Origin: an uncultured Actinomycetota bacterium
GTDB taxonomy: Bacteria > Actinomycetota > Actinomycetes > Mycobacteriales > Mycobacteriaceae
Direction: 5' to 3'
Assembly (NCBI GenBank): GCA_963733755.1
Contig: CAVTEZ010000008.1
Location: 48,328 to 112,327 of the forward strand
DNA: 64,000 nt
Part shown: piece by piece, positions 2,628 through 8,087 of the stretch
Layout of the letters: each line of letters begins with the position of its first letter
Position numbering within the stretch: the stretch's first letter is position 1
Program-made: the position numbers and the translations under genes
The notes under the pieces: model-generated
Told to the model about the DNA's origin: nothing
What the model saw: the letters and a program-made list of their open reading frames with translations, nothing else
The model's database searches: none

Positions 2628-4430
2628 GTGCGTGAATTAACTGTTCCCGCTCCATTCACGGTTGGCGAGCACGACAACATCGTTGCCGCCGTGTTCGAGC
2701 ACGAGCGCAACGACCCCGACGCGGTGATCTTCCAGCGCCAGGTCGACGGGACCTGGACCGATGTGACGTGCGCTGCTGCGGCAGCCCAAATACGTTCGGC
2801 CGCATTTGGTTTGATCGCTGGAGGGGTGCAGCCCGGTGATCGGGTGGCTATCTTCTCGGCCACCCGTTACGAGTGGGCAATCCTTGACCAGGCCATCCTC
2901 GCGGTCGGCGGCGTCACCGTCCCGATCTACGAGACGTCGTCGGCCGAGCAGGTGCGCTGGGTGCTGACCGACTCGGGCGCGGTGCTGGCTTTCGCCGAAA
3001 CCGATGCCCACGCCACGATGGTCACCGAGCTGGCCGGCGAGCTACCCGAACTGCGGCGCGTGCTGCACATCGACGGATCTGGTCCCAAAGCGCTCGACCA
3101 ACTCGAGCAGGAGGGCGCGTCGGTCGACCCGGCCGAGCTCACCGCTCGGGTCGAGGCGCTGCACGCCGACGATCCGGCGACGCTGATCTACACCTCGGGC
3201 ACCACCGGGCGCCCCAAAGGCTGCCAGCTGACCCACTCGAACCTGGTTTACGAGACCCGCGGAGCCAAGGCGGTGCTGCCGACGCTGCTGCGCAAAGGTG
3301 AGCGGTTGCTGGTGTTCCTGCCGCTCGCGCATGTGCTCGCGCGGGCGCTGACGCTGTGCGCGTTCCACAACAAGGTCGTCGTGGGATTCACCAGTGACAT
3401 CAAGAATTTGGTGCCGATGTTCGCGGTGTTCAAGCCGACGGTCGTGGTGTCGGTGCCGCGGGTGTTCGAGAAGGTCTACAACACCGCCGCGCAGAACGCC
3501 GCCAACGACGGCAAGGGCCGCATCTTCGAGATGGCCGCCCAAACCGCCGTCGACTGGAGCGAGGCATCCGATAGCGGCGGCGCAGGTCTGCTGCTGCGAG
3601 CCAAGCACGCCCTCTTCGATCGGCTGGTGTATCACAAGCTCCGCGCGGCGTTGGGCGGCGACTGCAACGCATCGGTGTCCGGCGGTGGACCGCTGGGCGC
3701 GCGGCTGGGCCACTTCTATCGCGGCGTCGGCCTGACCATCTACGAGGGTTACGGCCTGACCGAGACCAGTGCGGCGATCACCGTCAACCAGATCGATGCA
3801 CTGAAGGTCGGTACGGTCGGAAAGTTATTGCCGGGCAACAGCATGCGCATCGCCGACGATGGCGAGTTGCTGCTGCGCGGCGGTGTGGTGTTCGACGGCT
3901 ATTGGCACAACGAGCAGGCCACCAGTGAGGCGTTCGAGGACGGCTGGTTCAAGACCGGCGACCTGGGCGCGGTCGACGAACAGGGATTTCTGACGATCAC
4001 CGGTCGCAAGAAGGAGATCATCGTCACCGCCGGCGGAAAGAATGTCGCCCCAGCCGTTTTGGAAGACCAGTTGCGGGCGCACCCGCTGATCAGCCAGGCG
4101 ATGGTGGTCGGTGACGCCAAGCCGTTCGTTGGAGCGTTGATTACCATCGATCCCGAGGCGTTCGACGGCTGGAAGCAACGCAACGGCAAGTCGGCCGGCT
4201 CCTCGGTGGGCGATCTGGCCAACGACCCCGATCTGCTTGCCGAGGTGGATGGCGCTGTCAAACAAGCCAATCTGTCTGTGTCGCATGCGGAGTCGATTCG
4301 TAAATTCCGCATCCTGCCCGTCGACTTCACCGAGGACACCGGCGAGCTCACCCCGACGATGAAGGTGAAGCGCAAGGTGGTCGCCGAGAAATTCGCCAAC
4401 GACATCGAGGCGATCTACAACAAGGGCTAG
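2628..4430 (+). CDS. fadD15: Long-chain fatty acyl-CoA synthetase
   Basis: AMP-binding motifs [20 protein letters not shown] and FKTGDLG; 600 aa; syntenic with Rv2187. Confidence 0.9.
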
Positions 4431-5401
4431 CTGTGTGACTGACGATGGCCGGTGACAGGCTGAGCCTTGGTCTTTTGTAGCAGTCGTTCGTACGGGGTTT
4501 GGCCTCCGAGCCCTCCGTGCGGTCGGTGGTAGTTGTAGTAGTCCTCCCATTCCTTGAGTTTTTGGTTGAACAGGCCGGCGTCGTCCTCAACGACACCGTC
4601 GAGTAGTCGGTAGAACTCCTCGGCGTCAATGCGGTGTGAACGCTCCACTTTTCCGTTGAGCCTGGGTGTGCCAGGGCGGATGTAGATATGGCCGATGCCC
4701 TGATCAAGCACGTGCCAGTGGAAGCTGGACTGGAATTCGGCGCCGTTGTCGGTCTGGATCTTTTCGACCTGGAAGGGCAGTCGTGACAGCACGTAGTCGA
4801 GGAACTGGATCGCGGTCTTCTGGTCTGAGCGGGGATAGGCGCGGAGTACGCGGAGCCGGGTGCAGTCGTCGATCGCGGTGTATTGGTAGTAGCGCTTGCG
4901 ACGCCCTGATCCGGTGGTGATGGGCTCGATGAACTTGACGTCGATTTGCACATAATGGCCCGGACGCTGCTTCTCGTAGCGCTTCCACCGCCCGCTGTGA
5001 CGCTTGTAGCGTTGTGAGGCCGGCAGTCGATTCATCCCGAGCCGCTTGAGGATTCGCCACACTCCGGACGCGCTGATATCCACGTCGTGATAGCGCTTGA
5101 GGTACATCCGGATCTTCATTGGCCCGAAGTGGTAATGCTGGCGCAGGTGGATGATCTTCTCGACAACGTCGGGATGAGTGATCGTCGGGCACAGCAGGGG
5201 TGCACTCGACCGATCCTTGAGTCCGTCGAGGCCCTCATCTTCGTACCGGCGCTTCCACCGGTAAAAGACATTGCGGCTGATGCCGTAATAGCGGCAAGTA
5301 GCCGCCACATTCCCGCTGACCTCTTCAGCGTGCTGTAGTACCGCCAGGCGCCGGTTCGCCCGTCTGATCAGATCCTTCTCACTCCAAACACGGTCAGCCA
5401 T
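4427..5401 (-). CDS. IS481-family DDE transposase (324 aa)
   Basis: N-terminal HTH ([19 protein letters not shown]) and integrase core VQIDVK / TDNGAEF / [18 protein letters not shown] precedes ATG 5401. The stop codon is supplied by the target CTAG. Confidence 0.92.
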
Positions 5402-5454
5402 GCAGCTCCTTCCATCAGGAGCCCAGACTGTCAACAACCTCAGTCAGTTTTAGA
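4432..5454 (-). mobile_element. IS481-family insertion sequence, 1023 bp
   Basis: Imperfect 27-bp terminal IRs (4432-4458 and 5428-5454, 17/27 identical). Left flank GCTAGC (4426-4431) fits the NCTAGN target known for IS481. The right copy of the duplication is split by the IS110. Confidence 0.88.
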
Positions 5455-6929: not shown

Positions 6930-6949
6930 CAACTACGAACCTGGGATGT
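6926..6949 (+). promoter_or_regulatory. -35 box (TTGACA) and spacer of the IS110 circle-junction promoter
   Basis: TTGACA at 6926-6931. Joining the right end to the left end gives a 17-bp spacer followed by TCTAAT. Confidence 0.6.
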
Positions 6950-8087
6950 CTAGCCGCGGATCAGGTCGGACAGCCGCCCGGCCAGATCGTCCCACCGCCA
7001 CTGCGCGGTGACCCACTCTCGGCCGGCGGCGCCCATCGCCGCGGCGCGATCCGGGTCGGCCAGCAACTCACTGACGGCGTCGGTGACCTGCTGCACCGAA
7101 CGACCGTCGACTACCATCCCAGTCTTGTTGTGCTGCACGGTTTCCGGTGCTCCACCCGAGGATCCCGCGATCACCGGCACGCCGGTGGCCGATGCTTCCA
7201 GGAAAACGATGCCCAACCCTTCGACATCCAGCCCGGCGCCGCGAGTCCGGCACGGCATGGCGAACACGTCGGCCATCGCGTGGTAGGCAGGCAGGTCGGC
7301 GGACGGCACACCGCCGGTGAAAATGACGTGATCGCGTACGCCGAAACGCTCGGCCAGCCCGCGCAGCGTGTCCAGATACGGACCCCCGCCGGCGATGACA
7401 AGCGCAGCGCCGTCTACTCGTTGCCGGATTGCCGGCAGCGCCCGGATCAGCATGTCCTGGCCCTTGCGCGGTACCAATCGGGACAGGCACACCACCGTGG
7501 GCCGCTGGCCCAGAGCGTAGCGGGCGCGCAGCTCGACGCGGCTGGCCGGGTCGGGACGGAACCGCTCAGTATCGACGCCGGGCGGGAGGTGCTCCAAAGC
7601 GGCGTTCGCCCCGAACGCGGGTGCGAAACGTCCTCGCGTGTAACGGCTGACGAACGTGACGACGTCGCTATCCTGGCCGATGCGATGCAGCACCGACCGG
7701 GCCACCGGAAGCATCGACCAACCCACCTCGTGACCATGCGTGCTCGCCAGCACCCGGCTCGCTCCGGCTTGACGGGCACGCTGGGCCAGCAGGCCCAGCG
7801 GCGCGGCGGCACCGAACCAGACGACATCGATGCCCTGCTCGGCGATCAATCGGCGCATCCGGGAGTCGACGGTGGGCACGGGCAGCATCAGCGTCCCGGG
7901 GTGTCGCACCACGCGATAGCCGGCGGTCCGTACGTCGAAGGCTTCGGCGTCCTTCCACTTCGGCGCGTACACCGTCAGGGCGTGCTCGCCGGTGGCGGCC
8001 AGCCGGCGACACCAGCTCGACCAGATACGACTGGATGCCGCCGCGCCGGGGCGGAAAGTCGTTGGTTACCAGCAGGACCCGGGACAC
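6950..8087 (-). CDS. pimB: GDP-mannose mannosyltransferase PimB' (Rv2188c-like, GT4), split by a +1 frameshift near 8005
   Basis: MSRVLLVTNDFPPRRGGIQSY in one frame continues as RLAATGEHALTVYAPKW...VEGLGIVFLEA in another. There is one extra base in TCGCCGGCTG. Confidence 0.85.

What the first reader, a model, noticed from the sequence alone, without database searches (positions are those of the whole stretch)
4426..6954. Nested insertion: IS110 inside the target duplication of an IS481, at a CTAG shared by two stop codons
Seen: left flank GCTAGC, IS481 (4432-5454), then G-CT, the IS110 body, then CT-AGC. Removing the IS110 restores a perfect GCTAGC duplication. Removing both restores aagggCTAGccgcgg, where one CTAG is the stop of both fadD15 (+) and pimB' (-). 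The IS481 transposase also ends on that CTAG. Inference: about 2.5 kb was inserted in two ordered steps without changing either flanking protein, so convergent stop-codon overlaps may act as a neutral landing site.
Basis: partly seen in the sequence, partly recalled or inferred. Interest (0 to 1): 0.7.

Follow-up and report, generated by a model that had tools for sequence, protein, structure and literature searches.

The report
IS110 nested in an IS481 target duplication
Two ordinary mobile elements sit one inside the other between two convergent genes of a soil Mycobacterium-like genome. Both aim at the same short CTAG motif, and the first insertion created one of the genome's best landing sites for the second, RNA-guided one. 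It is a tidy natural example of known mechanisms, not a new kind of system.

Summary

- **Layout.** A 1,023-bp IS481-family element (4432-5454) lies in a GCTAGC target duplication. Its CTAG is the stop of both a fadD15-like (+) and a pimB'-like (-) gene.
- **Nesting.** A 1,492-bp IS110-family element (5458-6949) splits the right copy of that duplication at G-CT|AGC.
- **Earlier states.** Soil-metagenome contigs about 99% identical to the flanks show the empty site (aagggCTAGccgcgg) and the IS481-only state. This supports the order IS481 first, then IS110.
- **IS481 copies.** Seven of the eight IS481 copies in the genome carry NCTAGN duplications. The transposase always borrows its TAG stop from the target. 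Five of seven copies sit exactly on a gene's stop codon, against 17% of CTAG sites genome-wide. This behaviour is already published for actinobacterial IS481 relatives.
- **IS110 targeting.** The IS110 carries a bridge RNA in its left end. Its guides (TTATGAG-CT and CT-AGCC) covary with the flanks across 67 relatives.
- **Target ranking.** The IS481 end plus duplication (TTTAGAG-CT-AGCC) is among the four best guide matches of 460,882 CT sites in the genome. The empty site ranks about 300th.

Verdict: new members of two known families. The arrangement is explained by known mechanisms and is of modest interest.

The parts
2628..4430 (+). fadD15-like long-chain acyl-CoA ligase gene; stop TAG at 4428-4430 lies inside the left target duplication
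   Evidence: ORF list. Pfam AMP-binding plus AMP-binding_C_3. The name fadD15 comes only from synteny with M. tuberculosis Rv2187/Rv2188c, recalled from knowledge.
4426..4431 (.). Left copy of the 6-bp IS481 target duplication, GCTAGC. It supplies TAG to the fadD15-like gene (+) and TAG to the IS481 transposase (-).
   Evidence: Sequence; same NCTAGN flank at the other copies
4432..5454 (-). IS481-family insertion sequence, 1,023 bp, with imperfect terminal inverted repeats (TGTGTGACTGAC... / ...GTCAGTTTTAGA, 20 of 32 positions matching)
   Evidence: Eight genomic copies, six of them 100% identical over 1-1023; flanks; inverted-repeat alignment
4427..5401 (-). IS481-family DDE transposase CDS (324 aa). 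Its last sense codon straddles the element end, and its stop codon (4427-4429) is target DNA.
   Evidence: ORF; Pfam rve, HTH and LZ_Tnp_IS481; NCBIfam NF033577 at 277.7 bits against a cut-off of 224
5455..5457 (.). First part of the right IS481 duplication (G + CT). CT at 5456-5457 is the left copy of the IS110 core dinucleotide.
   Evidence: Sequence; CT on both sides of 74 relatives
5458..6949 (+). IS110-family element body, 1,492 bp, single copy in this assembly. It has a long left end (248 bp to the ATG), a short right end (20 bp) and no terminal inverted repeats.
   Evidence: BLAST against the genome; ends conserved in relatives
5515..5680 (+). Predicted bridge RNA with two stem-loops, each containing an internal loop, enclosed by an outer stem (GAGCC...GGCUC)
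   Evidence: RNAalifold on 67 distinct relatives with compensatory pairs. A single-sequence fold alone was not significant. No Rfam family matched.
5542..5550 (+). Left target guide TTATGAG+CT, in the same sense as the left target. The used site is TTTAGAG-CT and the empty site would be ACAAGGG-CT.
   Evidence: Guide/flank covariation
5570..5577 (+). Right target guide AAGGCTAG. Its reverse complement is CTAGCCTT, and the used site is CT-AGCC-GC.
   Evidence: Guide/flank covariation
5616..5651 (+). Donor-binding loop. GGGGTGGCG resembles the right end GGGATGTCT. ATCCATTAG is complementary to the left end CTAATGG (CTAATGT in this copy).
   Evidence: Read from the alignment and coordinates; not quantified
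5706..6929 (+). IS110-family DEDD recombinase CDS (407 aa from ATG 5706, preceded by AAGGAGG at 5694-5700)
   Evidence: Pfam DEDD_Tnp_IS110 plus Transposase_20; NCBIfam NF033542 'IS110 family RNA-guided transposase' at 185.3 bits against a cut-off of 140
6926..6951 (+). Half promoter. TTGACA (6926-6931) plus a 17-nt spacer plus TCT would read TCTAAT only when the right end is joined to the left end in an excised circle. In the chromosome it reads TCTAGC.
   Evidence: Read from the sequence. No complete sigma-70-like promoter in the linear arrangement. Function not tested.
6950..6954 (.). Right copy of the core CT (6950-6951) plus the remainder, AGC, of the right IS481 duplication. CTA at 6950-6952 is the pimB'-like stop codon.
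   Evidence: Sequence
6950..7972 (-). pimB'-like GT4 glycosyltransferase gene (listed ORF), C-terminus unchanged
   Evidence: ORF; Pfam Glycos_transf_1 and Glyco_transf_4

Best explanation
Two sequence-specific insertions occurred in a fixed order.

**Step 1.** An IS481-family element, which inserts at NCTAGN and duplicates those 6 bp, landed on the GCTAGC whose CTAG is the overlapping stop of the convergent fadD15-like and pimB'-like genes. The duplication puts a CTAG on each side, so both genes keep their stop codons. The transposase, which has no stop of its own, takes its TAG from the left copy.

**Step 2.** An IS110-family element then inserted. This element recombines at a CT core chosen by a bridge RNA encoded in its left end. 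Its left guide reads (TTAT)GAG-CT and its right guide reads CT-AGCC. The last bases of IS481 (..TTTTAGA) plus the right duplication and flank (GCTAGCC) form TTTAGAG-CT-AGCC. That is a far better match than the original site (AAGGG-CT-AGCC) or the left junction (AAGGG-CT-AGCT). The IS110 therefore split the right duplication at G-CT|AGC.

**What is shown.** The anatomy, the target rule of IS481, the order of events, the empty and intermediate alleles, guide/flank covariation in the IS110 clade, and the ranking of sites.

**What is inferred.** That the bridge RNA is expressed and actually guided this insertion. That the excess of copies on stop codons reflects survival of harmless insertions.
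For: **Anatomy.**

**IS481.**
- Eight copies align with identical ends.
- Seven of them have NCTAGN on both sides.
- Family membership is supported above the curated cut-off.
- Published relatives behave the same way (PMC6794481; PMC2516522).

**Order of events.**
- The empty-site joint 4426->6950 appears in runs X2, X3 and X4.
- The IS481-only joint 5455->6950 appears in run X1.
- The nested left junction appears in X23, X24 and X25 with 0-2 mismatches.

**IS110.**
- Domains score above the cut-off.
- The CT core and conserved ends are seen in 74 relatives.
- Each guide matches its own flank at 0.97/0.90/0.88 for positions -1 to -3 (background 0.61/0.27/0.31). For +1 to +4 the values are 1.0/0.96/0.97/0.90 (background 0.76/0.44/0.54/0.36).
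- Permutation test: 359 matches against 182 +/- 10 on the left, and 352 against 225 +/- 8 on the right.
- The consensus structure has compensatory pairs around two internal loops.
- The guide layout agrees with Durrant et al. 2024 (PMC11208160).

**Site ranking.**
- The used site scores 7.26 bits.
- Only 4 of 460,882 CT sites score as high, and 3 of those are IS481 right junctions.
- The empty site scores 1.40 (about rank 300) and the left junction scores -2.54.

**Other sites of the same IS110.** Near-identical copies in other soil runs lie at other ..(T/G)ATGAG-CT-AGCCG.. sites.

**Stop-codon excess.** Five of seven copies sit on a stop codon against a baseline of 17.2%.
Against: - No RNA data exist, so expression of the bridge RNA is untested.
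- The single-sequence fold is not better than shuffles (z = -1.32).
- Rfam has no matching family.
- The IS110 is single-copy here. Two equally good IS481 junctions (C14, C35) and one other top site are unoccupied, so use of an IS481 junction could be one draw out of four.
- The used site still mismatches the guide at -4 and -5. All natural right flanks have G at +5, which the guide does not explain.
- The IS110-to-pimB' junction was not found in any served run.
- The X1 'intermediate' contig is chimeric on its left side through the repeat. It could also represent precise excision of the IS110 rather than the state before insertion.
- None of 80 IS110 relatives has an IS481 transposase within 1.5 kb.
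- The scoring weights were derived from the same family alignment.
Confidence: 0.85

Rival explanations
1. Chance co-location. The IS110 only needs a GCTAGCC-like or GAGCTAGCC site. It hit the IS481 duplication by luck, and the IS481 end contributed nothing.
For: The genome holds 24 other GAGCTAGCC sites and 354 GCTAGCC sites. There is only one IS110 copy here. No IS481 lies near 80 relatives.
Against: Position -2 is matched in 90% of guide/flank pairs in the family, and the empty site fails it. With weaker positions included, three of the four best sites in the genome are IS481 junctions. The IS481-IS110 junction recurs in three runs, though these may be the same locus.
Confidence: 0.1
2. Reverse order or one-step insertion. 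Either the IS110 came first and IS481 second, or both arrived as one composite unit.
For: None beyond the two elements being adjacent.
Against: If the IS110 came first, the only NCTAGN left would be TCTAGC to the right of the IS110, and IS481 would lie there with TCTAGC on both sides. Instead, IS481 has GCTAGC on its left and GCT...AGC, split by the IS110, on its right. The IS481-only allele exists, and no IS110-only joint at this locus was reported. IS481 has complete ends identical to seven other copies.
Confidence: 0.02
3. Assembly artefact. The nested arrangement is a chimeric join of repeats in a metagenome-assembled genome.
For: The genome is a 38-contig, 91%-complete assembly. The right junction was not recovered in short-read contigs.
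Against: The left junction is present with 0 mismatches in independent runs. The right junction continues the duplication and the pimB' flank to the base. Only 7-8 bp (CTAGCCGC) are shared with other IS110 flanks, which is too short to mislead an assembler.
Confidence: 0.03

Closest known systems
ISRe46/TnRErm46 of Rhodococcus equi and ISLxc2/ISLxx4 of Leifsonia xyli (actinobacterial IS481 family); IS481 of Bordetella pertussis
   Same: NCTAGN 6-bp duplication. Ends beginning TGT. The transposase stop codon is supplied by the TAG of the duplication. Insertion on a gene's TAG stop leaves that gene intact (PMC6794481; PMC2516522). The family HMM scores above its cut-off.
   Different: This is a new element of 1,023 bp. 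The closest plasmid-borne transposases are 72-74% identical, in Arthrobacter and Rhodococcus. Here the same CTAG serves two convergent genes at once. This may be repeated at a second copy on contig C14, where the 163-aa partner ORF has no Pfam hit.
IS621 and other IS110-group bridge-RNA recombinases (Durrant et al. 2024, PMC11208160)
   Same: DEDD plus Transposase_20 recombinase. Long left end that encodes an RNA with a target loop and a donor loop. CT core on both sides. The left guide is in the sense of the left target (up to 7 nt plus core). The right guide is complementary to CT plus 4 nt. A promoter is completed only in the circle junction.
   Different: This is an actinobacterial clade whose members mostly aim at CTAG-centred sites. 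The protein is too distant for phmmer to find any solved structure. No Rfam model matches the RNA. Nothing has been tested at the bench.
IS110/IS1111-family elements that target other mobile DNA or repeats (IS4321/IS5075 in Tn21-family inverted repeats, elements in REP or attC sites; cited in PMC11208160)
   Same: An RNA-guided IS whose favoured sites in a genome are supplied by another repeated element.
   Different: Here the site is not inside the other element. It is the junction of its last 3-7 bases with its target duplication. It is a near-cognate site, not the perfect one. The perfect 9/9 left match is a tRNA-Met-derived sequence seen occupied in run X26.

Membership tests
IS481 family | DDE (rve) transposase matching the family model | tested here: met
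   NF033577 at 277.7 bits against a cut-off of 224; Pfam rve, rve_3, HTH_32 and LZ_Tnp_IS481
IS481 family | Terminal inverted repeats, about 1 kb in length, single ORF | tested here: met
   1,023 bp; 20 of 32 terminal positions match in inverted orientation; ends begin TGT / end ..AGA; one 324-aa ORF
IS481 family | 6-bp target duplication NCTAGN | tested here: met
   Seven of eight copies have it on both sides. The eighth copy is 91% identical and lacks the left one.
IS481 family | Transposase stop codon supplied by the duplication (actinobacterial members) | tested here: met
   The stop at 4427-4429 lies outside the element end at 4432. The same left flank xCTAGy occurs at the other copies.
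IS481 family | Mobility | tested here: met
   Six identical copies. The empty allele is present in three soil runs. This is indirect evidence, with no transposition assay.
IS110 family, IS110 group (bridge-RNA recombinases) | DEDD (RuvC-like) domain plus Transposase_20 domain | tested here: met
   PF01548 at 2.3e-36 and PF02371 at 1e-11; NF033542 at 185.3 bits against a cut-off of 140
IS110 family, IS110 group (bridge-RNA recombinases) | No terminal inverted repeats; long left end, short right end | tested here: met
   248 bp before the ATG at 5706 and 20 bp after the stop
IS110 family, IS110 group (bridge-RNA recombinases) | Same core dinucleotide on both sides of the element | tested here: met
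   CT|...|CT here and in 74 relatives
IS110 family, IS110 group (bridge-RNA recombinases) | RNA in the left end with two internal loops | tested here: met
   Consensus structure on 67 sequences with compensatory changes, for example pair 25/76 as AU 55 / GC 10 and pair 42/58 as GC 44 / AU 16. This is computational only.
IS110 family, IS110 group (bridge-RNA recombinases) | Target-loop guides covary with the flanking target | tested here: met
   Own-flank matches far exceed shuffled pairings: 359 against 182 +/- 10, and 352 against 225 +/- 8
IS110 family, IS110 group (bridge-RNA recombinases) | Donor-loop guides match the element's own ends | tested here: inconclusive
   ATCCATTAG is complementary to CTAATGG in relatives, but this copy has CTAATGT. 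GGGGTGGCG against GGGATGTCT has two changes. Both were read by eye and not quantified.
IS110 family, IS110 group (bridge-RNA recombinases) | RNA expressed and required for recombination | not testable with these tools
   Only DNA metagenomes hold this sequence

The most novel reading that the evidence does not exclude
Hitch-hiking between insertion sequences. Every insertion of this IS481 at GCTAGCC manufactures a top-ranked, gene-neutral target for the bridge RNA of this IS110. The spread of one element would then open safe sites for the other, and the IS110 guide may be drifting from its tRNA-Met-derived cognate site towards IS481 junctions.
Probability: 0.2. Interest if true: 0.5.

Novelty: new member of a known kind. 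Interest (0 to 1): 0.3.

Why it matters
This locus gives a fully resolved natural series: empty site, then IS481, then IS481 plus IS110. The choice of each site can be read from known rules.

It also documents an actinobacterial clade of bridge-RNA elements whose guides and natural targets are readable. It shows that another element's end plus its duplication can create near-cognate bridge-RNA targets.

This is useful for annotating insertion sequences in mycobacterial genomes. It also serves as a natural data point on mismatch tolerance of bridge RNAs. It does not open a new question.

Tried and rejected
- **Rfam.** A search of 4300-7100 found no bridge-RNA family, only an antisense sRNA model inside the transposase gene.
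- **Single-sequence fold.** The fold of the left end was no better than shuffles. The structure came only from the alignment.
- **Empty-site search.** An exact search for the empty or intermediate junction in JGI metagenome contigs found nothing. The alleles came from Logan contigs instead.
- **Other species.** The one-genome-per-species collection has no same-species genome. The nearest species is 83% identical and has CTAA at the junction, so cross-species comparison cannot serve as the empty site.
- **Right junction.** A search for the IS110-to-pimB' junction in 12 runs failed.
- **IS481 near relatives.** tblastn for an IS481 transposase next to 80 IS110 relatives found none.
- **Solved structures.** phmmer against the Protein Data Bank found no hit.
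- **Rejected readings.** IS110-first order, a composite transposon and an assembly chimera were considered and rejected (see rival explanations).
- **Correction.** A first hand-typed site string was wrong. The genome-wide scan and one search give the correct score.
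Full report
**What is in the sequence**

- A 600-aa AMP-binding acyl-CoA ligase ORF (2628-4430, +) ends with TAG at 4428-4430.
- GCTAGC occupies 4426-4431.
- An element with imperfect inverted ends runs from 4432 (TGTGTGACTGAC...) to 5454 (...GTCAGTTTTAGA).
- GCT follows at 5455-5457.
- A second element runs from 5458 to 6949.
- CTAGC follows at 6950-6954.
- A GT4 glycosyltransferase ORF on the minus strand (6950-7972) stops on CTA at 6950-6952.

Pfam and NCBIfam place the first transposase in the IS481 family (NF033577, 277.7 bits against a cut-off of 224). 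They place the second in the IS110 family (NF033542, 'RNA-guided transposase', 185.3 bits against 140). The names fadD15 and pimB' rest only on remembered synteny with M. tuberculosis Rv2187/Rv2188c. The domain content fits.

**The IS481-family element**

The window's genome (38 contigs, 4.97 Mb) has eight copies. Six are identical over exactly 1-1023, one is 99.7% identical and one is 91% identical. This fixes both ends.

Seven copies carry NCTAGN on both sides, mostly GCTAGC.

The transposase ORF starts at ATG 5401 behind GGAAGGAG. It has no stop inside the element. Its last sense codon straddles the end at 4432, and it stops on the TAG of the left duplication.

Exactly this is published for actinobacterial relatives.
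- In TnRErm46/ISRe46 of Rhodococcus equi, the TAG of the NCTAGN repeat is the transposase stop. [quoted passage not shown]
- ISLxc2 and ISLxx4 behave the same way (PMC2516522).

**Are stop codons favoured?**

CTAG is five-fold under-represented in this 65% G+C genome: 2,996 sites against about 16,000 expected. About 17% of CTAG or GCTAGC sites end a long ORF with coding-like third-position G+C. About 1.5% end two convergent ones.

With each IS481 copy removed in silico, five of the seven copies with intact duplications sit exactly on a stop codon of a recognisable gene:
- this locus;
- thioredoxin (C35);
- a TetR regulator (C29);
- a beta-lactamase-family protein (C21);
- an Hsp70-like protein (C14), where the same CTAG also ends a convergent 163-aa ORF that has no Pfam hit.

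One further copy is intergenic, and one splits a cyclase/STAND regulator ORF.

Five of seven against 0.172 gives a binomial tail of about 0.002 by my arithmetic. It follows from target specificity plus survival of harmless insertions. These data cannot separate choice from selection.

**Empty and intermediate alleles**

No same-species genome is in the one-per-species collection. The nearest species is 83% identical here and has GGCTAACC, with overlapping TAA and TAG stops. Two further species share a CTAG, and the others have spacers of a few to about 100 bp.

Soil metagenomes do hold this species. Logan contigs were laid on 3800-7600.
- A joint 4426->6950 that skips 2,523 bp appears in runs X2 (a 753-bp contig with 8 mismatches), X3 and X4. 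This is the predicted empty site, aagggCTAGccgcgg.
- A joint 5455->6950 that skips 1,494 bp appears in run X1. This is IS481 followed directly by GCTAGC and the pimB' flank.

The X1 contig's left flank belongs to another IS481 copy, so it is chimeric through the repeat. The right-junction words can only come from real reads. That allele is either the state before the IS110 arrived or the product of its precise excision. Both readings place the IS110 second.

The duplication logic agrees. If the IS110 had come first, the only NCTAGN left would be TCTAGC to its right.

**Independent support for the nesting**

Contigs crossing from IS481 into the IS110 left end are present in three further runs of the same study:
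- X23: 959 bp, covering 4675-5633, with 0 mismatches;
- X24: covering 5425-6026;
- X25: covering 4857-5496.

The IS110-to-pimB' junction was not found in any of the 12 runs examined. It rests on the assembly.

**The IS110-family element and its bridge RNA**

A scan of one genome per species found 546 relatives, of which 80 were kept (65-90% amino-acid identity, mostly Mycobacterium and other Actinomycetota). Many align over exactly 1-1492. In 74 of them the ends are CT|AATGGG ... CCTGGGATGT|CT.

Copies within one genome share about 5-7 bases to the left of CT and 3-5 bases to the right. This is the signature of RNA-guided IS110 elements.

Aligning the left ends shows two short variable blocks.
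- The first block (5542-5550 here, TTATGAGCT) has the sense of the left flank plus CT.
- The second block (5570-5577, AAGGCTAG) is the complement of CT plus the right flank.

Each element matches its own flank far better than it matches other elements' flanks.

| Position | Own-flank match | Background |
|---|---|---|
| -1 | 0.97 | 0.61 |
| -2 | 0.90 | 0.27 |
| -3 | 0.88 | 0.31 |
| +1 | 1.00 | 0.76 |
| +2 | 0.96 | 0.44 |
| +3 | 0.97 | 0.54 |
| +4 | 0.90 | 0.36 |

Weaker signal extends out to position -7. Totals are 359 against 182 +/- 10 on the left and 352 against 225 +/- 8 on the right, over 1,000 shuffled pairings.

RNAalifold on 67 distinct sequences puts both blocks in one internal loop of a long stem, with a second stem-loop behind it. 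Many pairs show compensatory changes.

This is the layout described for IS621. [quoted passage not shown] The second loop carries ATCCATTAG, complementary to the left end CTAATGG, and GGG(A/G)TG(T/G)CG, which resembles the right end GGGATGTCT. In this copy both have a mismatch. I did not quantify that.

TTGACA at 6926-6931, a 17-nt spacer and TCT would be completed to TCTAAT only in a right-end/left-end circle junction. The linear locus has no sigma-70-like promoter.

**Why the IS110 is in the duplication**

I scored every CT in the genome, with the IS110 removed, against this element's guides. The weights came from the family's match frequencies. Only 4 of 460,882 CT sites reach the score of the used site, and three of those four are IS481 right junctions on contigs C14, C8 and C35.

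| Site | Sequence | Score (bits) |
|---|---|---|
| Used site (IS481 right junction) | GTTTTAGAG-CT-AGCCGCGGA | 7.26 |
| Empty site | CAACAAGGG-CT-AGCCGCGGA | 1.40 (about rank 300) |
| IS481 left junction | CAACAAGGG-CT-AGCTGTGTG | -2.54 |

The IS481 end changes position -2 from G to A, which the family matches 90% of the time. The right side (AGCC) is original target DNA.

Near-identical copies of the same IS110 in other soil runs lie at other sites with the same core pattern.
- One left flank is ..GGGTTAT|GAGCT, a perfect 9/9 match to the left guide. Its 26 preceding bases are identical to the 3' half of the tRNA-Met(CAT) gene of this genome down to the anticodon loop.
- Another left flank is ..GGGTGAT|GAGCT.
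- At least five different right flanks all begin CT-AGCCG.

The IS481 junction is therefore a near-cognate site, not the perfect one.

**Limits**
- No RNA data exist, and there has been no bench test.
- The element is single-copy here, and two equally good IS481 junctions are empty.
- None of the 80 relatives has an IS481 nearby.
- The G at +5 in all natural sites is not explained by the guide.
- The scoring weights come from the same family.
- The three runs with the nested junction may all sample this one locus.

**Comparison and verdict**

Both elements pass the tests for their families (see the membership table). The arrangement follows from published mechanisms.

New here are two unnamed elements, an actinobacterial CTAG-centred bridge-RNA clade whose guides can be read, and the observation that another IS's end plus duplication makes top-ranked targets.

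The first-stage notes on the bridge RNA, the improved target and the circle promoter were seen after my own analysis and agree with it.

I rate this a new member of known kinds, interest 0.3.

Noticed in passing
window 6527-6608 (-): Rfam Ms_AS-4 (an actinobacterial antisense sRNA model) matches at 96.6 bits inside the IS110 transposase gene, on the opposite strand. The same stretch shows depth spikes in many soil runs. The Rfam family therefore seems to describe a conserved segment of IS110-family transposase genes.
   Followed up: no
G000 contig C30:16688-16764 (outside the window); run X26; locus L067 left flank: The IS110 left guide TTATGAGCT matches 9/9 a sequence that continues the 3' half of tRNA-Met(CAT) down to the anticodon loop. 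That site is occupied by the same IS110 in run X26 and by a relative in L067, where ARAGORN finds no whole tRNA. It looks like a partial tRNA copy, such as an attachment-site scar of an integrated element, serving as the cognate target.
   Followed up: partly
G000 contig C21:286085-287104 (outside the window): One IS481 copy (99.7% identical, GCTAGT duplication) splits a 1,037-aa ORF with adenylate-cyclase and STAND NTPase domains. This is the only copy that clearly disrupts a gene.
   Followed up: partly
G000 contig C14:39313-40335 (outside the window): A second IS481 copy sits on a CTAG that ends two convergent ORFs: an Hsp70-like protein of 561 aa, and an acidic, repeat-rich 163-aa ORF without a Pfam hit. 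Its right junction, AGAGCTAGCCC, is the top-scoring unoccupied target for the IS110 guide.
   Followed up: partly
G000 contig C30:15477-16469 (outside the window): The 91%-identical IS481 copy lacks the left CTAG duplication (flank ccggtgc). It lies about 220 bp from the tRNA-Met gene. It may be an old copy that has been rearranged.
   Followed up: no
window 6955-6957 and flanks in runs X11, X23, X46, X49: All natural right flanks of this IS110 have G at +5 (CT-AGCCG), although the right guide would pair with T there. This is an unexplained extra constraint, or a sign that the sites are related to one another.
   Followed up: no
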